IMG/VR virus record: IMGVR_UViG_3300014922_000089
Strand: one strand, 5' to 3'
Length of the DNA: 29,494 bases
From: a virus
Lineage: Duplodnaviria; Heunggongvirae; Uroviricota; Caudoviricetes
The notes below the pieces were generated by a model. That model saw only the letters and a program-made list of their open reading frames with translations, was not told the origin of the DNA and made no database searches. A program made the translations under genes and the position numbers. Below, one piece after another: positions 1 to 29,494 of the stretch (positions are counted from its first letter, which is position 1; the number at the start of each line of letters is the position of its first letter).

Positions 1-66
1 ATGATCATGCCATTATTATATTTAAACACTAGAGAGTGTCGTTGGTATTTAATGGGGGAAGGTGAG

Positions 67-384
67 ATGAAAAAGATAGCTGCTATATCATTAACTAGTA
101 TTTTTCTTATATCTGGTTGTGCTGTGCATAATGATGAGACAAGTATCGGTAAATTTGGTCTTGCATATAAAAGTAATATTCAGCGTAAACTCGATAACCA
201 ATACTACACCGAAGCCGAAGCTTCTTTAGCCAGGGGTAGAATATCTGGTGCAGAAAATATAGTAAAAAATGATGCAACTCATTTCTGTGTTACTCAGGGC
301 AAAAAAATGCAAATAGTTGAGCTGAAGACAGAAGGTGTAGGATTACATGGTGTCGCTCGTCTGACATTCAAATGTGGAGAGTGA
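67..384 (+). CDS. yegR: Small lipoprotein, YegR-like (105 aa), host flank
   Basis: ATG at 67 preceded by SD-like GGTGAG. N-terminus MKKIAAISLTSIFLISGC has a signal peptide plus lipobox (LISGC). Lies outside the att repeat. The yegR name is from recall of the K-12 yegQ-ogrK-yegR neighbourhood and is not verified. Confidence 0.55.
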   Translation: MKKIAAISLTSIFLISGCAVHNDETSIGKFGLAYKSNIQRKLDNQYYTEAEASLARGRISGAENIVKNDATHFCVTQGKKMQIVELKTEGVGLHGVARLTFKCGE

Positions 385-543
385 GAATATTTTTTGGTAA
401 GCGTCAAATATGCGCGTTCTGGCTGTGCGTAGCCGGAACCTGTGGGAGCACGATGCCGATAAGTGAAAGGCATCGTGCTATGAAGGAGGATTCTATCGAT
501 GTGGTCAATGGAAGACGGTTACCAGAGATAGGGCTTATGCATA

Positions 544-571
544 AAAAAATAAGCCCGTGTAAGGGAGATTA
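544..571. repeat. attL core (direct repeat AAAAAATAAGCCCGTGTAAGGGAGATTA)
   Basis: Exact 28-nt copy also at 27962-27989. Matches the P2 att core as recalled. Sits just downstream of the int 3' end. Confidence 0.8.
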
Positions 572-648
572 GGGTGTCACCAGTAGGGGCTTTCAACGGT
601 ACAATGCGGGTTTGAGCGGCATAAATTACCACTGAAAGCCCTTAAACG

Positions 649-1662
649 TTACTCTACTGTGGACACTGTGTGGACACACTCGACCTCAGTACCACCTCTT
701 AGCGGATTAAGAGAAATGGCGTCCTGAAGGTACTCTGGCGCAAAATGAGCGTAAACCATAGTTTGCTCAATCCGCGTGTGACCTAGTATCCGTTGTAGCG
801 TGATAATACTTCCTCCATTAATCATGAAATGAGTGGCAAAGCTGTGCCTTAGTGCATGTGTAGCTTGCCCCATTGGCAAATCCGGTTTTATTGCTTTCAT
901 TGTTCGTCTGAAGCGAGGGTAATCAGCATCAGGGAATAAAAAACCTCGTTTGTTATCCGCGATCATTTTGGCAACAGCCTCTGAGATCGGGACGGTGCGT
1001 GGTTTGTTTGTTTTCGTTTTAACAAACGTGACGCGGTTATGGATGATATTTTCTGCTTTCAAACGAGCTGCTTCTCCCCAACGTGCTCCAGTACTCAGGC
1101 AAAGAATCGCAATCTTTTTGTTGTCGCCGTCAAGAGCAGCAAGCAGTAAGGCAATTTCTTCCTGCGTGAGATAGCCTGTGTCTGGTTTTTCCTCCTTAAG
1201 CCTTTTTGTCCCTCTGATAGGGTGCTCACCAAAGAATAACTCCGCTTCAATCAGGGCTGTAAACATGCCGCTAATACATGTTAAATCACGATTGATACTC
1301 GAAGGTTTAATACCCTGACTTCTTCGGGTGGCGCAGTACTGGCTGATAAGCGATTTCGTAATTTGAAATGCGCATGGGTCATTCGTTATTTTTGTGAAGA
1401 TTTCAATTTTTCCAAGATTAGATTTCCCATGCTCTTCGTGTTTACCCTTTAAATCCCACCAGATCTGTGTCAGCTCCGACAGACGTCGCTTGTCTGTTGG
1501 TTTTGATAGCCATTCTTTATTGTGGTGGTTGTACAACGTGTATTTCGCGAAAGCGACAGCTTCGCTTTTCTTATCAAACTTCCTACGGATGCGTTTTCCA
1601 TTACGTCCAGTAGGGCGGATGTCCACTTCATATCGACCATCATCGAGTTTTTTGATTGCCAT
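649..1662 (-). CDS. int: Tyrosine integrase (P2 Int-like, 337 aa)
   Basis: 337 aa, the same length as P2 Int. C-terminal catalytic region shows HxxR (HALRHSFATHF) and a ...LGH...VYAH tyrosine motif. Adjacent to attL. Confidence 0.93.
   Translation of the reverse strand: MAIKKLDDGRYEVDIRPTGRNGKRIRRKFDKKSEAVAFAKYTLYNHHNKEWLSKPTDKRRLSELTQIWWDLKGKHEEHGKSNLGKIEIFTKITNDPCAFQITKSLISQYCATRRSQGIKPSSINRDLTCISGMFTALIEAELFFGEHPIRGTKRLKEEKPDTGYLTQEEIALLLAALDGDNKKIAILCLSTGARWGEAARLKAENIIHNRVTFVKTKTNKPRTVPISEAVAKMIADNKRGFLFPDADYPRFRRTMKAIKPDLPMGQATHALRHSFATHFMINGGSIITLQRILGHTRIEQTMVYAHFAPEYLQDAISLNPLRGGTEVECVHTVSTVE
660..680. promoter_or_regulatory. Tandem TGTGGACAC repeats (candidate Int arm-type binding sites, P' arm)
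   Basis: TGTGGACAC-TG-TGTGGACAC direct repeat inside the int 3' end, close to the att core. A similar TGTGGnC pair occurs in the P arm at 27903-27921. Confidence 0.4.
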
Positions 1663-2191: not shown

Positions 2192-2467
2192 ATGAGCAAG
2201 CAAGTAACACTCATGACTGATGCGATTCCTTATCAGGAGTTCGCAAAACTAATAGGAAAATCGACAGGAGCGGTTCGTCGGATGATCGATAAAGGAAAGC
2301 TGCCTGTAATTGATATGACCGATCCACAATCAGCTTCAGGTCGTGCAGGTGAATATTGGGTATACCTTCCGGCATGGAATAACGGACTAAAACTGGCTTA
2401 TGAAAGCCGCCCTAAAGAGATTCGTGACGGCTGGTTGATGTGGTTAGGTCTCGGTGAACCACGTTAA
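2192..2467 (+). CDS. cox: Cox (excisionase / early-promoter regulator, 91 aa)
   Basis: 91 aa, as P2 Cox. First gene of the rightward early operon, opposite C. Confidence 0.8.
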   Translation: MSKQVTLMTDAIPYQEFAKLIGKSTGAVRRMIDKGKLPVIDMTDPQSASGRAGEYWVYLPAWNNGLKLAYESRPKEIRDGWLMWLGLGEPR

Positions 2468-2477
2468 GGAGAACCGT

Positions 2478-2648
2478 ATGAATGAGCCTCGTTGTATTGC
2501 TCAGTTACTGCGTAACGAAAGCTCCAGGGCGATTGACTTCACCATCACCCACGGTAAGGGGCGTAAGGGAATCATTATCCGCACCAAAAAACAGAGTCCG
2601 TTAAAAAAGGCTCTGACCTTTCTGAAAAGCCGGAGGGTATGGAAATGA
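2478..2648 (+). CDS. Small early protein (P2 orf78 position), 56 aa
   Basis: ATG at 2478 with upstream AAGGAG SD. Position between cox and B. Confidence 0.5.
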   Translation: MNEPRCIAQLLRNESSRAIDFTITHGKGRKGIIIRTKKQSPLKKALTFLKSRRVWK

Positions 2649-3145
2649 CAGTGATGACGCTCAATCTCGTTGAAAAACAGCCAGCAGCTATGCGCCGGAT
2701 AATTGGCAAGCATCTTGCCGTCCCTCGCTGGCAGGATACATGTGATTATTATAATCAGATGATGGAGCGCGAACGGCTAACGGTTTGCTTTCATGCACAG
2801 TTAAAACAGCGTCACGCAACGATGCGTTTTGAAGAAATGAACGACGTCGAACGTGAACGACTGGTTTGTGCAATTGATGAATTGCGTGGCGCATTCTCAA
2901 AACGCCGTCAGGTTGGTGCAAGTGAGTATGCATATATTAGTTTTTTAACAGTCAGTCAGCGTCGCACTTTATTTATGCACGCACGACTGACTGAAAAAGA
3001 ATTCAACCAGCCATACTGGCGAATTAATGAAGAATCATGTTACTGGCGTGATGCTTTGTTCCGTGCATTACGTGAATTATTCAGCCTGTTTGAGTATGCA
3101 CCGACAATTCTGACGTCGGTAAAACCAGAGCAATATCTGCATTAA
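2645..3145 (+). CDS. B: Replication protein B (166 aa)
   Basis: 166 aa from the ATG at 2645, matching P2 B length and position. Confidence 0.7.
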   Translation: MTVMTLNLVEKQPAAMRRIIGKHLAVPRWQDTCDYYNQMMERERLTVCFHAQLKQRHATMRFEEMNDVERERLVCAIDELRGAFSKRRQVGASEYAYISFLTVSQRRTLFMHARLTEKEFNQPYWRINEESCYWRDALFRALRELFSLFEYAPTILTSVKPEQYLH

Positions 3146-3959: not shown

Positions 3960-4231
3960 GTATTCGTATCGAAATTGGCGAACGTTATGTCGTTACCAGT
4001 GACAGCTTTCAGTTTATTCTCCACGAGAAAAAGAGAGCGGAAAGCGGTAAAAACGCCGGTCAGGAATGGCTGTCGGTGGTTGGTTATTACCCGAAATTAA
4101 GCCAGCTCGTTTCCGGCCTGATGCATCACGATATTCTGACCGGAAGCGCAAAGTCTTTTGCTGATTTAAACGCGCAGGTTGAGCAACTCAGCAAGCGTTG
4201 TTCAGAGGCTTTTGGCTCATATGGCCGTTAA
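3956..4231 (+). CDS. Hypothetical early protein (P2 orf83 position), 91 aa
   Basis: Position and size. 3' end overlaps the A start. Confidence 0.5.
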   Translation: MSIRIEIGERYVVTSDSFQFILHEKKRAESGKNAGQEWLSVVGYYPKLSQLVSGLMHHDILTGSAKSFADLNAQVEQLSKRCSEAFGSYGR

Positions 4232-6497
4232 AGCCTCCGGGCGTTTTGTCCCTCCGTCAGCATTTGCCGCAGGCACCGGTAAGGCGTTTACCGGTGCTTA
4301 TGCATGGAACGCGCCACGCGAGGCTGTCGGGCGCGAAAGACCCCTTACACGTGACGAGATGCGTCAGGTGCAAGGTGTTTTATCCACGATTAACCGCCTG
4401 CCTTACTTTTTGCGCTCGCTGTTTACTTCACGCTATGACTACATCCGGCGCAATAAAAGCCCGGTACACGGGTTTTATTTCCTCACATCCACTTTTCAGC
4501 GTCGTTTATGGCCGCGCATTGAGCGTGTGAATCAGCGCCATGAAATGAACACCGACGCGTCGTTGCTGTTTCTGGCAGAGCGTGACCATTATGCGCGTCT
4601 GCCGGGGATGAATGACAAGGAGCTGAAAAAGTTTGCCGCCCGTATCTCATCGCAGCTTTTCATGATGTATGAGGAACTCTGCGATGCCTGGGTGGATGCG
4701 CATGGCGAAAAAGAATCGCTGTTTACGGATGAGGCGCAGGCGCATCTGTATGGTCATGTTGCTGGCGCTGCACGTGCTTTCAATATTTCCCCGCTTTACT
4801 GGAAAAAATACCGTAAAGGGCAGATGACCACGAGGCAGGCATATTCTGCCATTGCCCGCCTGTTTAACGATGAGTGGTGGACTCATCAGCTTAAAGGCCA
4901 GCGTATGCGCTGGCATGAGGCGTTACTGATTGCTGTCGGGGAGGTCAATAAAGACCGTTCTCCTTATGCCAGTAAACATGCCATTCGTGATGTGCGTGCG
5001 CGCCGCCAGGCAAATCTGGAATTTCTTAAATCGTGTGACCTTGAAAACAAGGAAACCGGCGAGCGCATCGACCTTATCAGTAAGGTGATGGGCAGTATTT
5101 CTAATCCAGAAATTCGCCGGATGGAGCTGATGAACACCATCGCCGGTATTGAGCGTTACGCCGCCGCAGAGGGTGATGGGGGGATGTTTATCACGCTGAC
5201 CGCGCCGTCAAAGTATCACCCGACACGTCAGGTCGGAAAAGGCGAAAGTAAAACCGTTCAGCTTAATCACGGCTGGAACGATGAGGCATTTAATCCAAAG
5301 GATGCGCAGCGTTATCTCTGCCGCATCTGGAGCCTGATGCGCACGGCATTCAAGGATAATGATTTACAGGTCTACGGTTTGCGAGTCGTCGAGCCACACC
5401 ACGACGGAACGCCGCACTGGCATATGATGCTTTTTTGTAATCCACGCCAGCGTAACCAGATTATCGAAATCATGCGTCGCTATGCGCTCAAAGAGGATGG
5501 CGACGAAAGAGGAGCCGCGCGAAACCGTTTTCAGGCAAAACACCTTAACCGGGGCGGTGCTGCGGGATATATCGCGAAATACATTTCAAAAAATATCGAC
5601 GGCTATGCACTGGATGGTCAGCTCGATAACGATACCGGCAGACCGCTGAAAGATACTGCGGCGGCTGTTACCGCATGGGCGTCAACGTGGCGCATCCCGC
5701 AATTTAAAACGGTTGGCCTGCCGACAATGGGAGCTTACCGTGAGCTACGTAAATTGCCTCGCGGCGTCAGCATTGCTGATGAATTTGACGAACGCGTGGA
5801 GGCTGCACGCGCCGCCGCAGACAGTGGCGATTTTGCGCTGTATATCAGCGCGCAGGGCGGGGCAAATGTCCCGCGCGATTGTCAGACTGTCAGGGTCGCC
5901 CGTAGCCCGTCGGATGACGTTAACGAGTACGAGGAAGAAGTCGAGAGAGTGGTCGGCATTTACGCGCCGCATCTCGGCGCGCGTCATATTCATATCACCA
6001 GAACCACGGACTGGCGCATTGTTCCGAAAGTTCCGGTCGTTGAGCCTTTGACTTTAAAAAGCGGCATCGCCGCGCCTCGGAGTCCTGTCAATAACTGTGG
6101 AAAGCTCACCGGTGGTGATACTTCGTTACCGGCTCCCACACCTTCTGAGCACGCCGCAGCAGTGCTTAATCTGGTTGATGACGGTGTTATCGAATGGAAT
6201 GACCCGGAGGTCGTGAGGGCGCTCAGGGGCACATTAAAACACGACCGGAGAACGCCAAACCGTCAGCAAAGAAACGGAAGCCCGTTAAAACCGCATGAAA
6301 TTGCACCATCGGCCAGACTGACCCGGTCGGAACGATTGCAAATTACCCGTATCCGCGTTGATCTCGCTCAGAACGGTATCAGGCCGCAACGATGGGAGCT
6401 TGAGGCGCTGGCGCGTGGCGCGACCGTAAATTATGACGGGAAACCTTTCACTTATCAGGTCGCTGATGATTGGCCGGGATTTTTGTTACCCATTTGA
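4221..6497 (+). CDS. A: Replication initiation protein A (rolling-circle HUH endonuclease)
   Basis: Starts MAVKASGRFVPP at the ATG at 4221 (the track starts earlier at TTG). HUH-like motif HHDGTPHWHMMLF and paired active-site tyrosines in GYIAKYISKN. About 758 aa. Confidence 0.9.
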   Translation: MAVKASGRFVPPSAFAAGTGKAFTGAYAWNAPREAVGRERPLTRDEMRQVQGVLSTINRLPYFLRSLFTSRYDYIRRNKSPVHGFYFLTSTFQRRLWPRIERVNQRHEMNTDASLLFLAERDHYARLPGMNDKELKKFAARISSQLFMMYEELCDAWVDAHGEKESLFTDEAQAHLYGHVAGAARAFNISPLYWKKYRKGQMTTRQAYSAIARLFNDEWWTHQLKGQRMRWHEALLIAVGEVNKDRSPYASKHAIRDVRARRQANLEFLKSCDLENKETGERIDLISKVMGSISNPEIRRMELMNTIAGIERYAAAEGDGGMFITLTAPSKYHPTRQVGKGESKTVQLNHGWNDEAFNPKDAQRYLCRIWSLMRTAFKDNDLQVYGLRVVEPHHDGTPHWHMMLFCNPRQRNQIIEIMRRYALKEDGDERGAARNRFQAKHLNRGGAAGYIAKYISKNIDGYALDGQLDNDTGRPLKDTAAAVTAWASTWRIPQFKTVGLPTMGAYRELRKLPRGVSIADEFDERVEAARAAADSGDFALYISAQGGANVPRDCQTVRVARSPSDDVNEYEEEVERVVGIYAPHLGARHIHITRTTDWRIVPKVPVVEPLTLKSGIAAPRSPVNNCGKLTGGDTSLPAPTPSEHAAAVLNLVDDGVIEWNDPEVVRALRGTLKHDRRTPNRQQRNGSPLKPHEIAPSARLTRSERLQITRIRVDLAQNGIRPQRWELEALARGATVNYDGKPFTYQVADDWPGFLLPI

Positions 6498-6757
6498 GTA
6501 AAAACACAACGTGATTTGATATGGCATTGAATGGCTTATGCGGAGCAGTTATGGGGCAGCAGAAGGTCAATAGCATGCTGAATTAGAAGGCTAAATGCTA
6601 TTGAGTGACTAGCATGTCGGTAAGGACAGCCGTTTGATCCTGGTCATAAAAGGCCATCCATTTAGTCTAATAAAATCATTGCGGGTAACCTTATGTCGAC
6701 GCATAATTCGTCTTGAGCGAAGTCTTGTCAGTCTTTCATCGTATTGATGATGGGCGC

Positions 6758-6787
6758 AAAAAAACCACCCTGGCAGGTGGTTTTTTT
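6758..6787. terminator. Bidirectional rho-independent terminator
   Basis: AAAAAAACCACC-CTGGCA-GGTGGTTTTTTT: a GC stem flanked by an A-run and a T-run, so it works on both strands. Downstream of A (+) and of the small minus-strand ORF. Confidence 0.6.
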
Positions 6788-6799
6788 GTTTGAAGCATA

Positions 6800-6913
6800 T
6801 TAAAGCATAATGCTGACATTGATATTACTGACGTTTACTGACAAACCACTCGGACTACCGTTTGGATAGCCAAAGAGGGCCAGAACGAGAATGCAGTAAT
6901 AGCATTTCTTCAT
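6800..6913 (-). CDS. Small hydrophobic protein (37 aa), hypothetical
   Basis: ATG at 6913 preceded by a perfect AGGAGG SD at the correct spacing. Product MKKCYYCILVLALFGYPNG... Terminator immediately downstream. The longer 88-aa track ORF has no RBS. Confidence 0.35.
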   Translation of the reverse strand: MKKCYYCILVLALFGYPNGSPSGLSVNVSNINVSIML

Positions 6914-7391
6914 ATTGCCTCCTGTAAGTAGAGGGCAACTTCCACCGGTATATGCGCTTCTTAGGTGGAATGACTTTTGAGCGAAGTCTTGCCCTGAAAT
7001 AATGCTCTGTTTAAACGCAAAGTGATTTGGCATATCACCGAACAGAGAGCCGGAAAAACACAACATATAGTATGTCGTTGTTTCTAGACATACATTCTAT
7101 GTTGTGTAACAAGGGCTTTGCATTAAACATGTTTGAGATTTTATTGATGTAGCTCAAAGTAAAAAACAGAGACTACGGATGATAAGGTCTTGAAAGCAAT
7201 GTAAATTTTTTAAAGTTGCCAATTGCTTAAAAATGTACAGTTGCGGTATGGCGTACTTAAAAAGCTATGCATGCAACAAGTGAATGTTTTTGCATGCGTT
7301 GGGGATGTCCGTTCAGGCTGCGTGCGGTCAGGACTGGTGCGGATCCATAGTATCTATGCAACTGCATTAAAACCGCCCCGTGAAACGGGCG

Positions 7392-7410
7392 GGCGAGGCG
7401 GGGAAAGCAC
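7392..7410. other. cos site (19-nt cohesive-end sequence GGCGAGGCGGGGAAAGCAC)
   Basis: Exact match to the P2 cohesive-end sequence as recalled. Correct side and orientation relative to Q. Confidence 0.5.
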
Positions 7411-7424
7411 TGCGCGCAAAATGT

Positions 7425-7570
7425 TCTTGAAATATTTGTGACATAAGCTAAGACACAAAATGATTGAAGGGCAGAGCAAATCCTACAGTCCTATGCTATT
7501 GTCTCATGTAATGTAGATAAGTTGAAAATTATCTTAAAATATAAGAGTAAAGACATTAAAAGGATTGGTT
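7425..7570 (+). promoter_or_regulatory. AT-rich putative promoter / 5' UTR of the cargo gene
   Basis: Abrupt shift to AT-rich sequence right after cos. TTGAAA and TATAAG-like hexamers present. AAAGGA SD 8 nt upstream of the ATG at 7571. No confident -35/-10 pair resolved. Confidence 0.3.
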
Positions 7571-8896
7571 ATGAATAATAACTCTAAGTTATTAAGCTCT
7601 ATCTCGGTTGAATCTGATTTCGAGAACCTTATAAAACTATATGCAAATGAGTTATTTGGTGGTGAAACATATCTGATCGGTGGTCCTTGGGATAATGGAA
7701 AGGATTTGGTAATAAAAAAGGGGAATAGAGAGTTAAAGCAAGCTGTACAAATATCTATTCAAGAGAAAAATATTGAAAGTAAGATTGCTCAAGATATTAA
7801 AAAAGTGGCGAAATTGGTTGATGATCATTATTACCCGCCTGTATTATATTTTTTTTGGAGTCATTCAATATCTGAGCATTTATTGGATAAGATAAGAACA
7901 AATGCTCTTAAGGAAGATTTGATTAGATTGGAGTTTTATGATGCCAAACGAATCTCTCAAGATATTACAGATAAATACCCAGGGTTATTGAATTACTTAA
8001 TAAAAGATATACATAAGATAAGTTCTAATACTGAAGATGCAATTAACTTGCAACAAAGAGCATTTTATGAATATTTATTGTTAAGCAAAGATAGTGCTAA
8101 TTTAAAAAATGAAATAATAAAAGCTAGTATTATGTCTAATTTATATGATGGCGGGAAGTCTGCTGATGATATTCTAGAGAATCTAAAAGGTGTTAGTCTT
8201 ACAAAACGTAGTTTACAGGGTAGACTGCAAAACCTAATTCATCAAAATAAAATTAGATTGAATGATGGTATATATAGCCTGTCACCAGAGGAAATTAAAA
8301 AACTTGAGAATATAAATCTCCGTGAAATTGTTAGAAAAGAAGAGTTGTTATCAGTAATAAATAATGAGTTGCCCAGAAATACAAGTAAGAATCTGGCTGT
8401 TCAAGTTGTTGATTTAATAATAAAGGCTTATGAAGAATCAATAAATGTCCAATTAACAGAAAGTAAATTTGAGCCTCCAAAATTACAGATATTCAAAACT
8501 ATAGTACATAATTTAAAGGTGTTGATACGGCAGGAATATGATTTGGATGATGAGTCTTCGGATGCTTTAGCAAAAAAGCTAATGGAGTTGGCTGGTCAAA
8601 ATGACTATTTATCCGAGCATTGCTCTGCTAAATTATGTGTGAATCTGTTAAGTGATCGGAAATTAGAGAAATATATTGAAAATAAAAATTTTTATATCTA
8701 TTTTGATGCGCCTGTTCTTATTCCATATTTGATAACTCTTATGTTTGGAGATTTTGAGCTTTTTGATAAGTCGATTAAAAATATAAATTTACTGAGAGAG
8801 TGCATAAATCCCCTCAAAAATAAACATCTGAGAGTTTCTAATGAACATTTTGAAGAAACTGCAAGGCACTACTCTGAAGCTGAAAAATTAAGTTAG
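7571..8896 (+). CDS. Cargo protein, N-terminal segment (441 aa); possible Mrr-like PD-(D/E)xK nuclease motif
   Basis: ATG at 7571 with SD. AT-rich with K/N/I-rich codon usage, foreign to the phage backbone. Motif GGPWDNGKDLVI...IQEK resembles Mrr-type GGxxDxGxD...QxK. Ends at an in-frame TAG (8894-8896). Confidence 0.7.
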   Translation: MNNNSKLLSSISVESDFENLIKLYANELFGGETYLIGGPWDNGKDLVIKKGNRELKQAVQISIQEKNIESKIAQDIKKVAKLVDDHYYPPVLYFFWSHSISEHLLDKIRTNALKEDLIRLEFYDAKRISQDITDKYPGLLNYLIKDIHKISSNTEDAINLQQRAFYEYLLLSKDSANLKNEIIKASIMSNLYDGGKSADDILENLKGVSLTKRSLQGRLQNLIHQNKIRLNDGIYSLSPEEIKKLENINLREIVRKEELLSVINNELPRNTSKNLAVQVVDLIIKAYEESINVQLTESKFEPPKLQIFKTIVHNLKVLIRQEYDLDDESSDALAKKLMELAGQNDYLSEHCSAKLCVNLLSDRKLEKYIENKNFYIYFDAPVLIPYLITLMFGDFELFDKSIKNINLLRECINPLKNKHLRVSNEHFEETARHYSEAEKLS

Positions 8897-8959
8897 TTTG
8901 TAACTGAAGATTTAATTAGTCAACTTGGTGAGTCGAAAAATGTATACTTTAATGTTTAT

Positions 8960-9832
8960 ATGCGGTGGAAAAACAAACAGCCTAAACGTACAGACTTTTA
9001 CGATTTTACTTATGCTTTTCTAGGGTTGGATAAAGATGATATTTATGCGGGATATAAGCATGACACATTTGCGCAATGCATTCATAATTTACTAGCGTCA
9101 GCAAATATTGTTGTAATTGATAATAAAGACTCGGTGTCACAAGACTTTGTATTTAAAATAAAGCAAAAACTTAAAAGGGATTTGAATTCTTCACGTCCCG
9201 TTCGAGCCATAGAAAATGATGTTATATGTGCTGCAACTTTGAGTGATGAAACCCTACATCTTGATTCCAATGGTTACTTCAGTACTCCCATGCTAATAAC
9301 ACTTGATAGATCTCAATATCTATTGAGAAGCATAGTAAGAAATGAAAGGAGACATGCTGAATGGTTGGTTTATACCCCTCAAAGAGCAATTGAACGTCTT
9401 TCCTTGGTGGGTTTAAAAATATCATCGGAATCGTTAAAGGATGGTGTTTTAGCAACCATATCAGAAGAATATTTCTTTAAAGAAAGTTCCAGTAGTTTGA
9501 TTGATACTTTGGCTATTATCATTGGAGATAATCAAGCAAGGCAAGGAGATGTTATTAGGCTTGCATCGCTTTTAAAAAGAAAGGTCAATGAGGAATCTAT
9601 TGAGAATTCAGAAATTGATATTGAACACTATAATAACATTAGTTATGTGCTTCTTTTCATTCATCGTGAATTTAAATCTGAATTTTCAAATATAATAAAA
9701 ATTTTTGCTGAGGATAGTAGGCGAGATAAACTGGTTGAAGTTTTGTTATCCACTATTCAAGGAGTTTTTGATGAGAGTAAAAAGGAAATCTTGCGCTCAA
9801 ATATAGGACGGTTGTTGGCTGAAATGGGATGA
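8960..9832 (+). CDS. Cargo protein, C-terminal segment (290 aa); same frame as 7571-8896, no own SD
   Basis: Same reading frame as the upstream ORF. The 63 nt between them are open in that frame. No SD upstream of the ATG at 8960. Probably a continuation of one gene interrupted by an amber codon. Confidence 0.55.
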   Translation: MRWKNKQPKRTDFYDFTYAFLGLDKDDIYAGYKHDTFAQCIHNLLASANIVVIDNKDSVSQDFVFKIKQKLKRDLNSSRPVRAIENDVICAATLSDETLHLDSNGYFSTPMLITLDRSQYLLRSIVRNERRHAEWLVYTPQRAIERLSLVGLKISSESLKDGVLATISEEYFFKESSSSLIDTLAIIIGDNQARQGDVIRLASLLKRKVNEESIENSEIDIEHYNNISYVLLFIHREFKSEFSNIIKIFAEDSRRDKLVEVLLSTIQGVFDESKKEILRSNIGRLLAEMG

Positions 9833-9923: not shown

Positions 9924-10958
9924 TTAGGTATCGCAAGTATCTAGTGAGTAGTTTTTAAAGTGGATGACCTCCTGACCGAGCCAGCCGTTTATTTCCCGAA
10001 TTCTGTCCTGTAGCGGGATAAGCTCATTGCGGACAAAGACCTTTGCCACTTTCTCAATATCGCCCAGCGACCCGACGTTCTCCGGCTTGCCGCCCATCAA
10101 CTGAAAAGGGATGCGGTGCGCGTCCAGCAGGTCAGCGGCGCTGGCTTTTTTGATATTAAAAAAATCGTCCTTCGTCGCCACTTCACTGAGCGGGATAATT
10201 TTAATGCCGTCGGCTTTCCCCTGCGGGGCATAGAGAAACAGGTTTTTAAAGTTGTTGCGGCCTTTCGACTTCACCATGTTTTCGCGGAGCACTTCGATAT
10301 CGTTGCGATCCTGCACGGCATCAGTGACGTACATGATGTATCCGGCATGTGCGCCGTTTTCGTAATACTTGCGGCGGAACAGCGTGGCCGACTCATTCAG
10401 CCAGGCAGAGTTAAGGGCGCTGAGATATTCCGGCAGGCCGTACAGCTCCTGATTAATATCCGGCTCCAGCAGGTGAAATACGGAGCCGGGCGCGAAAGGT
10501 GTCGGCTCGTTGAAGGACGGCACCCACCAGTAAACATCCTCCTCCACGCCACGGCGGGTATATTTTGCCGGTGAGGTTTCCAGTCTGATGATCTTACCGG
10601 TGGTGCTGTAACGCTTTTCCAGAAACGCATTACCGAACACCAGAAAATCCAGCACAAAGCGGCTGAAATCCTGTTGTGAAAGCCACGGATGCGGGATAAA
10701 TGTCGAGGCCAGAATATTACGTTTGACGTAAATCGGTGAGCTGTGATGCACGGCAGCACGCAGGCTTTTTGCCAGACCGGTAAAGCTGACCGGTGGCTCA
10801 TACCATCTGCCGTTACTGATGCACTCGACGTAATCCAGAATGTCACGGCGGTCGAGTACCGGCACCGGCTCACCAAAGGTGAATGCCTCCATTTTCGGGG
10901 CGCTGGCGGTCATTTTTTTTGCCGCAGGTTGCGGTGTTTTCCCTTTTTTCTTGCTCAT
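9924..10958 (-). CDS. Q: Portal protein Q (344 aa)
   Basis: 344 aa, as P2 Q. Leftward operon with P. Confidence 0.9.
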   Translation of the reverse strand: MSKKKGKTPQPAAKKMTASAPKMEAFTFGEPVPVLDRRDILDYVECISNGRWYEPPVSFTGLAKSLRAAVHHSSPIYVKRNILASTFIPHPWLSQQDFSRFVLDFLVFGNAFLEKRYSTTGKIIRLETSPAKYTRRGVEEDVYWWVPSFNEPTPFAPGSVFHLLEPDINQELYGLPEYLSALNSAWLNESATLFRRKYYENGAHAGYIMYVTDAVQDRNDIEVLRENMVKSKGRNNFKNLFLYAPQGKADGIKIIPLSEVATKDDFFNIKKASAADLLDAHRIPFQLMGGKPENVGSLGDIEKVAKVFVRNELIPLQDRIREINGWLGQEVIHFKNYSLDTCDT

Positions 10959-20076: not shown

Positions 20077-20856
20077 TTAAAATATCCAACTGATAAATCC
20101 ACCTGAATACTTTTCACTAATTTTGATTGCATAAAGATCATGAAGAGTTATAAATAAATCATTATCTTCTTTGAAAATTAACTCCTCATATTCTGCCATT
20201 ATCAAATTATGCTGTGTTGTTAGTTTAGATATGTTATCTATTTCACTGGCAAGCATGGATTTGTTTACATTGGTGTGTGGATCCATGGCAATATATTTCC
20301 GCATCAATGGAATTAGTTGATCAGGGTCTATATTTTTTGCATTTTCCTTTGCTTTTTTTTGTCTTTCTGAATAGATGGAGTTAATTGTGTCAGTGTGTTT
20401 TTTCGCCAGTCTCTTAAACTCTGGATATGAACCAGTAACTAATGCAAGCTCTTCGTACTTAAGGAATAAATCGATATTGCATTTTTTTACCGTCATTTCA
20501 AGATCTTCAACTCTTTTTTTTAACTCTTCATTTGTTTTAATAAGAGACATCGGGAGAACTTCATAATGTTGTCCTAATTCTGAATCAGGGCTCATTGCCA
20601 TATGTACTATTTCATTATACATGAGCTGATAAGAAGCAGATAACTCTCCATACTTTAGAAATAGTTCATTATGTGAAGATGAACAAGAACTTTGTAATTT
20701 CATCATTGGCCTAAAGTAATCCTTTATAAACTCCTCCTGAAGATCTTGGTCTTTTTTGTAGCTCTCTAGGATTCCAGCAAAAAGAAATGACCCTAAAGAT
20801 ATAGAGATTATGGATATTAGCAATTGACTAAGGAATGATTGTGTTTCATTACTCAT
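20077..20856 (-). CDS. AT-rich cargo protein, 259 aa, N-terminal transmembrane helix (Z/fun-position gene)
   Basis: ATG at 20856 with AAGGA SD. One predicted transmembrane helix (LSQLLISIISISLGSFLFAGIL), then a helical soluble region. Opposite strand to the late genes. AT-rich. Confidence 0.65.
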   Translation of the reverse strand: MSNETQSFLSQLLISIISISLGSFLFAGILESYKKDQDLQEEFIKDYFRPMMKLQSSCSSSHNELFLKYGELSASYQLMYNEIVHMAMSPDSELGQHYEVLPMSLIKTNEELKKRVEDLEMTVKKCNIDLFLKYEELALVTGSYPEFKRLAKKHTDTINSIYSERQKKAKENAKNIDPDQLIPLMRKYIAMDPHTNVNKSMLASEIDNISKLTTQHNLIMAEYEELIFKEDNDLFITLHDLYAIKISEKYSGGFISWIF

Positions 20857-27640: not shown

Positions 27641-27859
27641 ATGTTTCATTGTCCTTTATGCCAGCATGCCGCACATGCGCGTACAAGCCGCTATATCACT
27701 GACACGACAAAAGAGCGTTATCACCAGTGTCAGAACGTGAATTGCAGCGCCACGTTCATCACTTATGAGTCGGTACAGCGATACATCGTGAAACCGGGAG
27801 AAGTCCACGCCGTAAGGCCGCACCCGTTGCCGTCAGGGCAGCAAATTATGTGGATGTAA
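27641..27859 (+). CDS. ogr: Late gene activator Ogr (72 aa, C4 zinc finger)
   Basis: MFHCPLCQHAAHARTSRYITDTTKERYHQCQNVNCSATF: the Ogr/Delta zinc-finger pattern. 72 aa from the ATG at 27641. Last gene before attR. Confidence 0.85.
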   Translation: MFHCPLCQHAAHARTSRYITDTTKERYHQCQNVNCSATFITYESVQRYIVKPGEVHAVRPHPLPSGQQIMWM

Positions 27860-27872
27860 TTACAAACAGAAA

Positions 27873-27897
27873 GCCCCTCAGTCGAGGGGCTTTTTTT
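27873..27897 (+). terminator. Rho-independent terminator after ogr
   Basis: GCCCCTC-AGTC-GAGGGGC followed by TTTTTTT. Confidence 0.75.
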
Positions 27898-27961
27898 GTC
27901 GATGTGGTCAATGTGTGGACGTGACCAGAAATAAATCCTTTTATTTCATTGTATTACGCGT

Positions 27962-27989
27962 AAAAAATAAGCCCGTGTAAGGGAGATTA
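27962..27989. repeat. attR core (direct repeat of 544-571)
   Basis: Exact 28-nt copy of the attL core. Confidence 0.8.
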
Positions 27990-28132
27990 CACAGGCTAAG
28001 GAGGTGGTTCCTGGTACAGCTAGCATTTTATGGGTTATGTTTTTCAGCGAAACGGATGATAACCTTAATAAATGCAGCTGTATGTGATCGGTTTCTAAGA
28101 ATTTTCCATCCGGGAAAAATAATCGAAATTAA

Positions 28133-29494
28133 TCACTTACCGTGGGGATTACGCGTGGTTTCCCCGGAGAAATTACGCATCAGCAGCGCGTAATTGAGCT
28201 CAAGATCCTGCGGGACCGGGAGCCACACAGTATAACCATCGCCTGGTGCTATCGGCATAGCTTCGCCTTTGGCGTTTTCCATGTGCTCAAGGGTAAAATT
28301 AATGTTGCCTTGCGGCGTCATCAGCTCAAGGCTGTCGCCAACGGAGAATTTATTTTTCACCGCTACCGCCGCGAGGTCCCCCTTGCGCTCACCGGTAAAC
28401 TCACCAACAAACTGCTGGCGGTCAGAAACTGAATAACCGTATTCGTAGTTCTGATAATCGTCGTGAGTATGACGACGCAGGAAACCTTCGGTATAGCCAC
28501 GATGCGCCAGACCTTCCAGAGTTTCCAGCAGGCTGGTATCGAACGGTTTTCCCGCAGCGGCGTCATCGATAGCTTTGCGGTAAACCTGTGCGGTGCGTGC
28601 ACAATAGTAGAAAGATTTGGTACGACCTTCGATTTTCAGCGAATGCACGCCCATTTTGGTCAGGCGTTCTACATGGGCGATGGCGCGCAGATCTTTCGAG
28701 TTCATGATGTAAGTGCCGTGCTCATCTTCAAACGCGGTCATATACTCGCCCGGACGCTGGGCCTCTTCGATCATAAACACTTTGTCGGTTGGTGCGCCGA
28801 TACCCAGCGTCGGCTCAACATTTTGCACCGGAATCGGCTCGTACTTGTGTACGATGTTGCCAACATCATCTTCTTTCCCTTCCTGGACGTTGTACTCCCA
28901 GCGGCAGGCGTTGGTGCAGGTGCCCTGGTTCGGGTCGCGCTTGTTGATATAGCCAGAGAGCAGGCAGCGACCGGAGTAGGCCATGCACAGCGCGCCGTGA
29001 ACGAAGATCTCGATCTCCATATCCGGCACCTGATTGCGGATCTCTTCAATCTCTTCCAGCGACAGCTCGCGAGAGAGGATCACGCGGGTCAGGCCCATTT
29101 GCTGCCAGAATTTCACCGTCGCCCAGTTCACGGCGTTAGCCTGCACCGAAAGGTGGATCGGCATTTCAGGGAAGTGCTCACGCACCAGCATAATCAGCCC
29201 TGGATCGGACATAATCAGCGCATCCGGCCCCATTTCCACCACCGGTTTCAGGTCACGGATAAAGGTTTTCAGCTTGGCGTTGTGCGGTGCAATGTTGACC
29301 ACGACATAAAACTTTTTCCCCAGCGCGTGGGCTTCATTGATGCCGAGCTGAAGATTTTCGTGGTTGAATTCGTTGTTGCGCACACGCAGGGAATAACGCG
29401 GCTGGCCCGCATAAACAGCATCTGCGCCATAAGCGAAAGCGTAACGCATATTTTTCAGCGTTCCCGCCGGGGAAAGGAGTTCCGGTTTAAACAT
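28133..29494 (-). CDS. yegQ: Peptidase U32-family protein YegQ/TrhP (453 aa), host flank
   Basis: Full-length 453 aa starting MFKPELLSPAGTLKNMRYAFAYGADAVYAGQPRY, with the start codon at the window edge. Outside the att repeat. Confidence 0.85.
   Translation of the reverse strand: MFKPELLSPAGTLKNMRYAFAYGADAVYAGQPRYSLRVRNNEFNHENLQLGINEAHALGKKFYVVVNIAPHNAKLKTFIRDLKPVVEMGPDALIMSDPGLIMLVREHFPEMPIHLSVQANAVNWATVKFWQQMGLTRVILSRELSLEEIEEIRNQVPDMEIEIFVHGALCMAYSGRCLLSGYINKRDPNQGTCTNACRWEYNVQEGKEDDVGNIVHKYEPIPVQNVEPTLGIGAPTDKVFMIEEAQRPGEYMTAFEDEHGTYIMNSKDLRAIAHVERLTKMGVHSLKIEGRTKSFYYCARTAQVYRKAIDDAAAGKPFDTSLLETLEGLAHRGYTEGFLRRHTHDDYQNYEYGYSVSDRQQFVGEFTGERKGDLAAVAVKNKFSVGDSLELMTPQGNINFTLEHMENAKGEAMPIAPGDGYTVWLPVPQDLELNYALLMRNFSGETTRNPHGK

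What the first reader, a model, noticed from the sequence alone, without database searches (positions are those of the whole stretch)
497..511. 15-nt phage-arm motif (TCGATGTGGTCAATG) also present on the bacterial side of attL
The same 15-mer lies 33 nt left of the attL core (bacterial side) and 50 nt left of the attR core (phage P arm, 27899-27913), where it overlaps TGTGGnC repeats resembling Int arm-type sites. Its presence on the host side suggests the integration site already carried a relic of an earlier P2-like phage arm, or that attB shares extended homology with attP. A 10-bp perfect inverted repeat (GCACGATGCC ... GGCATCGTGC, 449-479) sits just upstream.
Basis: seen in the sequence. 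Interest (0 to 1): 0.45.

Follow-up and report, generated by a model that had tools for sequence, protein, structure and literature searches.

The report
Fossil P2 phage arm beside cyaR
The 15-base phage motif on the bacterial side of this P2-type prophage is real: it is the decayed scar of a much older P2-like prophage that nearly all E. coli carry next to the small-RNA gene cyaR, an ordinary though tidy piece of genome archaeology.

Summary
TCGATGTGGTCAATG lies at 496-510 and 27899-27913, and similarity extends to 496-530 (0/2000 shuffles). The window is a P2-type prophage (572-27961) inserted at the 3' end of the sRNA gene cyaR (27965-28050, minus strand). The 28-nt att core is the 3' half of the CyaR terminator plus its U-tract, and it is conserved across Enterobacteriaceae. 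The 15-mer contains one Int arm-type repeat (TGTGGTCA), as found in P arms of P2-family phages from several genera. It is not specific to this lysogen: empty sites carry it, and its 30-mer is near-exact in 5223/5426 E. coli genomes. In 80 other Enterobacteriaceae yegS usually sits about 80 nt from the core, with no yegR and no motif. E. coli instead has an AT-rich insert of about 800 bp exactly at the core edge: a decayed core plus P' arm (fossil attL, outside the window), yegR, an 11-bp hairpin, then a decayed P arm next to the intact core. The relic is probably inert: its second repeat is mutated, the IHF block is gone, and about 700 genomes carry a prophage beside it. Low-to-moderate interest; a new example of a known kind.

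The parts
1..66 (+). Right-hand part of the AT-rich leader of the E. coli-specific insert, upstream of yegR. The fossil attL lies about 130-250 nt before the window start.
   Evidence: Window 1 = L001 2501. The insert spans L001 ~2243-3042, GC 38.9% against 50-54% for yegS and trhP. The fossil attL is at L001 2249-2370.
67..384 (+). yegR, a small lipoprotein gene and the only surviving ORF of the insert (possible former phage cargo)
   Evidence: Annotated yegR in E. coli genomes. Absent from all 80 trhP loci of other Enterobacteriaceae. Homologues at 47-78% identity lie in unrelated contexts. Nucleotide homology to them is confined to the CDS.
447..479 (.). 11-bp perfect inverted repeat with an 11-nt loop; a stable hairpin with no U-tract and unknown role
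   Evidence: arms 447-457 / 469-479. (-21.3 and -19.3 kcal/mol, z -6 and -7). No terminator-like call. Allelic differences seen within the hairpin fall in the loop.
491..530 (+). Fossil P arm of an ancient P2-like attR. It holds the 15-mer (496-510), an intact arm-type repeat TGTGGTCA (500-507), and a mutated second repeat (about 511-517, GAAGAC in place of TGTGGAC).
   Evidence: Arm-site consensus tgTGGaCa from PMC3448106. Present in the empty site L001. The 30-mer 490-519 is near-exact in 5223/5426 genomes.
531..543 (+). Remainder of the bacterial-side arm. It is 15 nt shorter than the phage arm, and the A/T-rich IHF-type block is missing. GGGCTTAT (531-538) is complementary to ATAAGCCC in the core.
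   Evidence: I2
544..571 (+). attL core of the resident prophage, a copy of the last 25 nt of cyaR plus 3 more bases of its T-tract
   Evidence: D11, 100% identical to 27962-27989
572..690 (+). P' arm of the resident prophage, with two TGTGGACA repeats (658-665 and 669-676) overlapping the 3' end of int
   Evidence: Sequence read; consensus from PMC3448106
649..1662 (-). P2-type tyrosine integrase gene
   Evidence: Pfam Int_N 1.3e-24 and Phage_integrase 8.9e-22
27644..27859 (+). ogr (late-gene activator), the last gene of the prophage
   Evidence: Pfam Ogr_Delta 1.1e-21
27870..27897 (+). ogr terminator hairpin plus T-run, immediately before the P arm
   Evidence: Sequence read. The same layout is seen in other P2-family phages.
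27899..27961 (+). Functional P arm of the resident prophage: the 15-mer (27899-27913), arm repeats TGTGGTCA (27903-27910) and TGTGGACG (27914-27921), and an A/T-rich IHF-type block
27962..27989 (+). attR core, which is the true 3' end of cyaR
27965..28050 (-). cyaR (RyeE) sRNA gene. The 3' arm of its terminator stem, the loop and the U-tract make up the att core.
   Evidence: Rfam RF00112, 100.7 bits, E 3.9e-21, full length. Terminator fold -15.9 kcal/mol. Co-varying stem across 77 species.
28133..29494 (-). trhP (yegQ), the conserved chromosomal gene upstream of cyaR

Best explanation
The bacterial-side 15-mer is the best-preserved piece of the P arm of a fossil attR. In most Enterobacteriaceae the chromosome reads trhP, cyaR (whose terminator is the att core), about 80 nt, then yegS. 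In the lineage leading to E. coli, an element with a P2-type attP integrated by Int-mediated recombination at the 3' end of cyaR. Deletions then reduced it to about 800 bp of AT-rich DNA. What remains is a decayed core plus P' arm next to yegS (fossil attL), the orphan lipoprotein gene yegR, a hairpin, and a decayed P arm abutting the right-hand core (fossil attR). That right-hand core stayed perfect because it is the working CyaR terminator. The relic itself most likely does nothing now. It keeps one arm-type repeat (TGTGGTCA), but the second repeat is mutated, the IHF-type block is gone, and the spacing to the core is 15 nt short. Shown here: the motif's presence in empty sites, its phage origin, the insertion boundaries, the fossil attL, and the identity of the core with cyaR. 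Inferred: that the element was a full prophage, that yegR was its cargo, and that the relic is inert.
For: (1) The motif is real and the similarity extends beyond it (alignment score 38 vs 14.8 +/- 2.2, 0/2000 shuffles).
(2) It is part of attB. The empty site L001 has the 15-mer and the full core. 5403/5426 E. coli genomes carry at least 80% of window 1-575. The 30-mer 490-519 is near-exact in 5223 genomes.
(3) The direction is phage to host. P arms of P2-family phages and prophages in Escherichia, Yersinia, Klebsiella, Citrobacter, Scandinavium and Trabulsiella share the layout terminator, (G)TCGATGTGGnC, 11 bp, TGTGGAC, A/T block, core, even where the core differs. The published arm-site consensus is tgTGGaCa (PMC3448106).
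(4) Outgroups: 77/80 trhP loci have the core at a fixed distance from trhP, usually about 80 nt from yegS, and none has yegR. Escherichia sp. E1V33 has yegS directly beside the core.
(5) The E. coli ancestral arm (87% identical to E1V33) ends at ...GAAAGTCG-GAGGaTAAAAAG, exactly where E1V33 enters the core. The insert has 38.9% GC against 50-54% for its flanks.
(6) From that junction the E. coli sequence aligns collinearly with core plus P' arm, starting at core base 1. No dinucleotide shuffle out of 1000 matched it under two scoring schemes. In an nhmmer search of 0.76 Mb it was the only hit apart from E. albertii. Identity is 73/124.
(7) Such remnants recur at this site: K-12 D'-ogrK (PMC3032704 Table 2); E. 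albertii cdtABC bounded by a clear attL (E 3e-14) and a truncated P arm; E. bugandensis with a terminator plus GTCGAT stump.
(8) The core is the cyaR 3' end (Rfam 100.7 bits).
(9) The relic does not block integration: about 702 genomes have the relic-core-P' junction.
Against: No phage gene fragment is detectable in the insert by blastn or tblastx against P2-type right ends or against the phage collection. YegR has no homologue in sequenced phages except in records that include host flank. The fossil attL is weak: it is not significant under stringent +2/-3 scoring (173/1000 shuffles), and its nhmmer E-value is about 1 database-wide. Its support rests on its predicted position and collinearity. 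A perfect 15-17-nt run inside an otherwise heavily decayed arm is somewhat more than uniform decay predicts (roughly P 0.01-0.1, depending on the assumed age). The outgroup set has only two non-coli Escherichia lineages; E. fergusonii, E. marmotae and E. ruysiae were not examined.
Confidence: 0.8

Rival explanations
1. The relic has been kept, or co-opted, as a working accessory Int arm-type site on the bacterial side. Int's N-terminal domain would bind TGTGGTCA at 500-507 and so modulate capture of attB, or the balance between excision and integration at this preferred site.
For: The repeat matches the arm consensus at 7/8 positions and is identical to the first P-arm repeat of the resident phage. 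The 30-mer around it is near-exact in 96% of E. coli genomes, while the adjacent 30-33-mers match in only 30-37%. A perfect 15-17-nt run contrasts with about 59% identity in the fossil attL.
Against: P2-type arm sites occur as paired direct repeats. Here the partner is mutated, the IHF-type block is missing, and the spacing to the core is 15 nt shorter. With about 11 polymorphic sites in 159 nt, one given 30-nt block free of polymorphism has P of about 0.1, so there is no statistical evidence of constraint (my calculation). A host has no obvious benefit from keeping a phage Int site. Many other species use the same core without any such motif.
Confidence: 0.08
2. The integrated element was never a full P2-like prophage. 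It was a small element carrying a P2-type attP (a satellite, mini-island or cassette) that was mobilised in trans by a P2-type integrase and carried yegR.
For: Only att-like ends and one non-phage ORF survive, and no phage gene remnant is detectable. yegR homologues are found in IS-rich islands and other non-phage contexts.
Against: All comparable cases at this very site are cut-down P2-type prophages: K-12 D'-ogrK, the E. albertii cdt island, and full prophages in five or more genera. 800 bp of old AT-rich DNA would not be expected to retain recognisable gene fragments. No such mini-element is known for P2-type integrases (my knowledge).
Confidence: 0.08
3. The direction is reversed: an ancestor of these phages picked up the bacterial arm by aberrant excision, so the P arm copies host DNA.
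For: Aberrant excision from this orientation would place bacterial left-flank DNA where the P arm sits. The 15-mer lies on the matching side of the core in both copies.
Against: The same repeats occur in P arms of P2-family phages that use other cores and other hosts, and also in the P' arm. Hosts lacking the insert lack the motif. No free phage carries the rest of the bacterial arm; the only 'phage' records that do are prophage extractions with host flank.
Confidence: 0.02
4. The match is a chance coincidence, or a strain-specific duplication or assembly artefact.
For: The exact match is short (15 nt).
Against: 0/100 and 0/2000 shuffles reach it. Strand and side relative to the core are the same in both copies. 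It is present in thousands of independent assemblies, including empty sites.
Confidence: 0.01

Closest known systems
E. coli K-12 cryptic P2 remnant (D'/yegZ-ogrK-attR) at the cyaR / yegR-yegQ site
   Same: It is at the same locus, uses the same core, and arose by the same process: a P2-type prophage cut down by a deletion whose left end lies in the attL core, leaving a P arm next to an intact core (L002; 'cyaR RNA ... ogr-D'' in PMC3032704 Table 2). About 356 genomes carry this junction.
   Different: The K-12 remnant is young. D' and ogrK are intact enough to annotate, and the P arm has both repeats and the A/T block. It also sits to the right of the older relic, so K-12 carries both. The relic studied here is species-wide, about 800 bp, and has no recognisable phage gene and only one intact repeat.
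P2 attP P arm (Int arm-type direct repeats tgTGGaCa plus an IHF-type site)
   Same: The sequence is the same for 15-17 nt, including one repeat. Strand, side of the core and upstream hairpin position also match.
   Different: The second repeat is mutated, the A/T-rich block is absent, the arm is 15 nt closer to the core, and the upstream hairpin is unrelated in sequence and lacks a T-run.
E. albertii cdtABC island at the cyaR site
   Same: It is a prophage remnant bounded by attL (core plus P' arm) and a truncated P arm plus core, retaining a non-phage cargo operon. cdt is known cargo of P2-like prophages (PMC6823313).
   Different: It is much fresher (its P' arm is near-identical to modern phages), it keeps the core-proximal half of the P arm rather than the distal repeat, and it is 3.4 kb long with a toxin operon.
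Integration of temperate elements into the 3' ends of tRNA, tmRNA and sRNA genes (ssrA, the sdsR/ryeB locus), which leaves att scars
   Same: The phage carries a copy of the RNA gene's 3' end so that the gene is rebuilt on integration. Repeated use of the site leaves degraded elements downstream (sdsR locus remark in PMC3333887).
   Different: Here the target is the CyaR terminator, and the scar includes a recognisable recombinase arm-type site rather than only a core repeat.

Membership tests
P2-type Int arm-type binding site | Match to the consensus tgTGGaCa | tested here: met
   TGTGGTCA at 500-507 matches 7/8 positions and is identical to the first P-arm repeat at 27903-27910 (consensus from PMC3448106).
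P2-type Int arm-type binding site | At least two direct repeats side by side (11-bp register) | tested here: not met
   The partner position reads GAAGACG in place of TGTGGAC, with 2 substitutions and a 1-nt deletion.
P2-type Int arm-type binding site | A/T-rich IHF-type block between the arm repeats and the core, at phage spacing | tested here: not met
   The block AAATAAATCCTTTTATTTCA, conserved in phage arms, is absent. The arm is 15 nt shorter.
P2-type Int arm-type binding site | Bound by the Int N-terminal domain | not testable with these tools
   Needs a gel-shift or footprint assay.
Prophage remnant (cryptic prophage scar) | Absent from sister lineages that keep the uninterrupted site | tested here: met
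   Escherichia sp. E1V33 and most of the 80 Enterobacteriaceae have yegS about 80 nt from the core; none has yegR.
Prophage remnant (cryptic prophage scar) | Bounded by att-derived repeats (attL and attR) | tested here: met
   On the right, a decayed P arm plus a perfect core. On the left, a decayed core plus P' arm starting at core base 1. The left side is weak: 59% identity, significant only with permissive scoring or given its predicted position.
Prophage remnant (cryptic prophage scar) | Atypical base composition | tested here: met
   38.9% GC against 49.7% (yegS), 54% (trhP) and 50.2% (the resident prophage).
Prophage remnant (cryptic prophage scar) | Recognisable phage gene fragments | tested here: not met
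   No blastn or tblastx similarity to P2-type ends or to 50,697 phage records beyond the arm block.
P2 attB at the cyaR 3' end | Core identical to attP and overlapping the CyaR terminator | tested here: met
   28/28 identity. RF00112 at 27965-28050, 100.7 bits. cyaR is listed as a P2 insertion site in PMC3032704.

The most novel reading that the evidence does not exclude
The single intact arm-type repeat on the bacterial side is not dead. It would still recruit the N-terminal domain of P2-type integrases and make this attB a 'semi-complex' site, which could contribute to the strong preference of P2-type phages for the cyaR site in E. coli or alter excision from attL. Its near-invariance across E. 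coli would then reflect constraint, or repeated phage-driven selection, rather than chance.
Probability: 0.08. Interest if true: 0.55.

Novelty: new member of a known kind. Interest (0 to 1): 0.3.

Why it matters
This result explains a puzzling repeat without invoking new biology, and it tidies up a classic locus in three ways. First, the preferred P2 attachment site of E. coli is the terminator of the sRNA CyaR. Second, the DNA between that terminator and yegS, including the orphan gene yegR, looks like the last 800 bp of a much older P2-like prophage. Third, the site has been used again and again, so K-12 carries two nested remnants. That gives yegR a likely origin as acquired DNA, possibly phage cargo, and shows that recombinase arm sites can survive as recognisable scars. 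It also provides natural attB variants (no relic, one repeat, a full P arm as in K-12) for testing how arm sites beside attB affect P2 integration. For annotation pipelines it is a caution: att-flanking repeats longer than the core do not always mark the boundary of the current prophage.

Tried and rejected
1. The idea that the perfect 28-nt core is itself a fossil left by an old phage. Rejected: the core is the CyaR terminator, conserved with compensatory changes in 77/80 Enterobacteriaceae.
2. A free phage carrying the bacterial arm, as aberrant excision would produce. The only 'phage' records with it (vB_EcoM-720R8 and 'Phage TP') are a prophage extraction with gatR-yegS-yegR flank and the K-12 remnant.
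3. yegR as demonstrable P2 cargo. There is no YegR in phage records apart from those two, and the divergent homologues lie in non-phage contexts. This remains an inference.
4. Phage gene fragments in the insert. None found by blastn, tblastx or a BLAST search of the phage collection.
5. A known RNA family or terminator in 1-800. Rfam found nothing at E <= 1, and there was no terminator-like call. The role of the 447-479 hairpin stays unknown.
6. Purifying selection on the 15-mer. The block is the least variable part of the arm, but the test has no power (P about 0.1), so no claim is made.
7. Primary literature on P2 att sites (Barreiro & Haggard-Ljungquist 1992; De Lay & Gottesman 2009) is not in the held library. 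I therefore could not check whether the arm-like block in attB was noted there.
8. The local Pfam copy gave no hit for YegR, although the precomputed annotation lists PF27694 (YegR).

Full report
**1. What is in the window**

The window holds a P2-type (Peduovirus) prophage, 572-27961. A tyrosine integrase gene lies at its left end (649-1662, minus strand; Pfam Int_N and Phage_integrase). ogr lies at its right end (27644-27859; Ogr_Delta).

The prophage is bounded by a perfect 28-nt direct repeat, AAAAAATAAGCCCGTGTAAGGGAGATTA, at 544-571 and 27962-27989. The chromosomal flanks are yegR (67-384) on the left and trhP/yegQ (28133-29494, minus strand) on the right.

**2. The observation**

- TCGATGTGGTCAATG occurs exactly twice, on the same strand, at 496-510 and 27899-27913. 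The finding's left coordinate is off by one. No shuffle out of 100 gave two matches even with two mismatches allowed.
The stretch 491-530 against 27894-27933 is 40 nt at 75%.
- With the core excluded, the best local alignment of the whole yegR-to-core spacer against the phage arm covers 496-530: TCGATGTGGTCAATG-GAAGACGGTTACCAGAGATA against TCGATGTGGTCAATGTGTGGAC-GTGACCAGAAATA. It scores 38, against 14.8 +/- 2.2 for shuffles (0/2000).
- The bacterial-side arm is 15 nt shorter between this block and the core.
- The inverted repeat is real but is 11 bp, at 447-457 / 469-479. It is very stable on both strands and has no U-tract.

**3. The motif is a phage recombination signal**

P arms of P2-family phages and prophages share one layout: ogr-type terminator, (G)TCGATGTGGnC, a second TGTGGAC 11 bp later, an A/T-rich block (AAATAAATCCTTTTATTTCA) and then the core. 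This holds in P2-type coliphages, L-413C, a Klebsiella Reipivirus and a Yersinia Firavirus. It also holds in prophages of Citrobacter youngae, Scandinavium and Trabulsiella. The layout persists even where the core differs.

The published arm-site consensus for P2-type integrases is tgTGGaCa, present as direct repeats on both sides of the core (PMC3448106). The P' arm in this window has two such repeats, at 658-665 and 669-676. The 15-mer therefore contains the first P-arm repeat (TGTGGTCA) plus its conserved flanks.

**4. The bacterial-side copy is part of attB, not a product of this lysogeny**

An unoccupied site (strain 27992, L001: yegR, spacer, core, trhP) carries the 15-mer and the complete core. 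Of 5426 complete E. coli genomes, 5403 carry at least 80% of window 1-575. The 30-mer 490-519 is near-exact in 5223 of them.

K-12-type strains carry the same arm. In them it is followed by 18 nt of core fused to D', then ogrK, a complete P arm and a full core (L002). K-12 therefore already has two copies of the motif.

The only 'phage' records containing the bacterial arm are a prophage extraction with host flank and the K-12 remnant filed as 'Phage TP'.

**5. What the core is**

Rfam places cyaR (RF00112, 100.7 bits, full length) at 27965-28050 on the minus strand. The att core is the 3' arm of the CyaR terminator stem, its loop, three bases of the 5' arm, and the U-tract.

Across 80 trhP loci from Enterobacteriaceae, a core-like 28-mer (0-4 mismatches) lies at a fixed distance from trhP in 77. 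Its stem shows compensatory changes between species: CCCGTG/CACGGG, CCTGCG/CGCAGG and CCCGCG/CGCGGG. The core is therefore old, functional host sequence that the phage copies, as happens with tRNA and tmRNA targets.

cyaR is already listed as a P2-type insertion site (PMC3032704, Table 2: 'cyaR RNA: Wphi2 (P2) / ogr-D' / P2*B').

**6. The arm lies in an E. coli-specific insert placed exactly at the core**

- In most of the 80 loci the yegS start codon lies about 80 nt left of the core, and none contains yegR (tblastn).
- Escherichia sp. E1V33 reads ...GATGAAAGTCGTGAGGC | AAAAAATAAGCC.... E. coli keeps the same ancestral arm (87% identity) up to ...GATGAAAGTCG-GAGGaTAAAAAG and then diverges.
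- About 800 bp follow before the true core (L001 ~2243-3042). This DNA has 38.9% GC, against 50-54% for the flanking genes. It contains yegR, the hairpin and the arm-like block.
- YegR homologues are almost confined to Escherichia and Shigella. The few divergent ones (47-78% identity) lie in unrelated neighbourhoods. Nucleotide homology to them stops at the ends of the coding region.

**7. A fossil attL at the other end**

From the left junction, the E. coli sequence aligns collinearly with the phage core plus P' arm, beginning at core base 1 (L001 2249-2370 against window 544-658).

- No dinucleotide shuffle out of 1000 reached the score under +1/-1 or +5/-4 scoring. Under +2/-3 scoring the alignment is not significant, at 173/1000.
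- I ran nhmmer with core plus P' arm against 0.76 Mb: the E. coli yegS-yegR regions plus all 80 loci with their true cores masked. It returned only E. albertii (E 3e-14) and the predicted E. coli junction. That junction scored E about 1 database-wide, or roughly 5e-4 for the 324-nt region predicted in advance.
- In a three-way alignment, E. coli matches the phage at 73/124 positions and E. albertii at 92/127.
- No sequenced phage is closer.
- This fossil attL lies about 130-250 nt before the window start.

**8. The process recurs at this site**

- K-12 has the D'-ogrK remnant. About 356 genomes share its junction.
- E. albertii has cdtABC between a clear attL and a truncated P arm that keeps the second repeat and the A/T block but not the 15-mer. 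cdt is known cargo of P2-like prophages (PMC6823313).
- Enterobacter bugandensis keeps an ogr-type terminator plus GTCGAT and then breaks off.
- Several other genera have full P arms, meaning prophages or remnants, at the same core.

**9. Mechanism**

The best-supported history has four steps.

- An element with a P2-type attP integrated at the cyaR 3' end in the lineage leading to E. coli.
- Deletion and decay reduced it to an attL scar, yegR, a hairpin and an attR scar.
- The right-hand core stayed intact because it is the CyaR terminator.
- Modern P2-type phages keep integrating there. About 702 genomes have the relic-core-P' junction seen in this window, and about 4146 cover the empty-type junction, a count that includes some joined K-12-type loci.

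The relic is probably inert. Only one of the paired repeats is intact, the A/T block is missing and the spacing has changed. This last step is inference and was not tested.

**10. Rivals**

- **Functional accessory arm site.** This is not excluded. The 30-mer around the repeat is the least variable part of the arm (96% of genomes, against 30-37% for its neighbours). A perfect 15-17-nt run also stands out against about 59% identity in the fossil attL. However, with about 11 polymorphic sites in 159 nt, one given invariant 30-nt block has P of about 0.1. In addition, conservation of this repeat among phage lineages can explain the identity if the source phage differed elsewhere.
- **Phage captured host DNA.** This reverse direction is contradicted by the distribution of the repeats.
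- **Chance or artefact.** Both are excluded.
- **A small Int-mobilised element rather than a full prophage.** This cannot be excluded, because no phage gene remains.

**11. Novelty and score**

The cyaR att site, the K-12 remnant and P2 arm sites are all known. I did not find the species-wide older scar around yegR, with its arm-type repeat, in the literature I could search. The key primary papers were not available.

This is a new example of a known kind, a prophage scar at a reused RNA-gene att site. Interest is low to moderate (0.3).

Noticed in passing
window 27965-28050 (-): cyaR (RyeE) sRNA gene, Rfam 100.7 bits. The 28-nt att core is the 3' half of its terminator plus the U-tract, so integration rebuilds cyaR at attR and leaves a 25-nt cyaR 3' fragment at attL (544-571).
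   Followed up: yes
L015 (E. albertii NBRC 107761), locus 5360-9000: A cdtA/cdtB/cdtC operon lies between yegS and cyaR. It is bounded by a clear attL (core plus P' arm, nhmmer E 3e-14) and a truncated P arm lacking the first repeat, so it is a P2-type prophage remnant that kept its toxin cargo.
   Followed up: partly
L013 (record titled Enterobacter hormaechei B17-3): TrhP's best-aligned segment is 100% identical to the window's protein, and the core (0 mismatches) and the 20 nt to its right match E. coli exactly. The DNA left of the core and yegS (74% identity) are Enterobacter-type. This could be recombination at the att/cyaR site or an assembly or labelling problem.
   Followed up: no
window 531-538 / 549-556: An 8-bp inverted repeat GGGCTTAT / ATAAGCCC links the bacterial arm to the core. 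On the cyaR strand it could pair the terminator's 3' arm with downstream sequence (-10.4 kcal/mol, z -2.7). It may be chance (an 8-mer in a short region).
   Followed up: partly
L002 3040-3065 (K-12-type locus): The left junction of the K-12 D'-ogrK remnant lies inside the attL core after 18 nt (…AAGCCCGTGTA|GCAGAGTTCTCC…). The D gene has GTGTGGCGGAGTTCTCC at the matching point (window ~27345), so the deletion used GTGT(A/G)G microhomology, or a secondary Int site.
   Followed up: partly
L100 (E. coli FDAARGOS_1077) 2560-2620: A natural in-frame-breaking deletion of most of yegR between short direct repeats (GGTTGTGCT / GGCTGTGCGT). It leaves the hairpin, the relic and the core intact, so yegR is dispensable in that strain.
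   Followed up: no
L053, L013/L072/L078/L082/L086/L088, L037/L039/L054 (Enterobacter, Kluyvera): Many genera have lineage-specific insertions of 0.3-2.6 kb between yegS and the cyaR terminator, some ending in coding sequence right at the core. E. bugandensis keeps an ogr-type terminator plus GTCGAT stump. The cyaR 3' end is a family-wide insertion hotspot.
   Followed up: partly
window 7565-8896 (+), 8960-9832 (+), 20077-20856 (-), 6800-7066 (-): ORFs of 443, 290, 259 and 88 aa in the resident prophage, two of them (7565-9832) between the gpA-sized ORF (4179-6497) and the 344-aa ORF at 9924-10958, have no Pfam-A or PADLOC hit. They lie where P2-family phages usually carry morons or defence genes.
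   Followed up: partly
window 447-479: The stable 11-bp hairpin downstream of yegR has no U-tract on either strand and no Rfam match. Allelic differences seen inside it fall in the loop. Its role is unknown (yegR mRNA 3' end, a processing site, or a leftover of the old element).
   Followed up: partly
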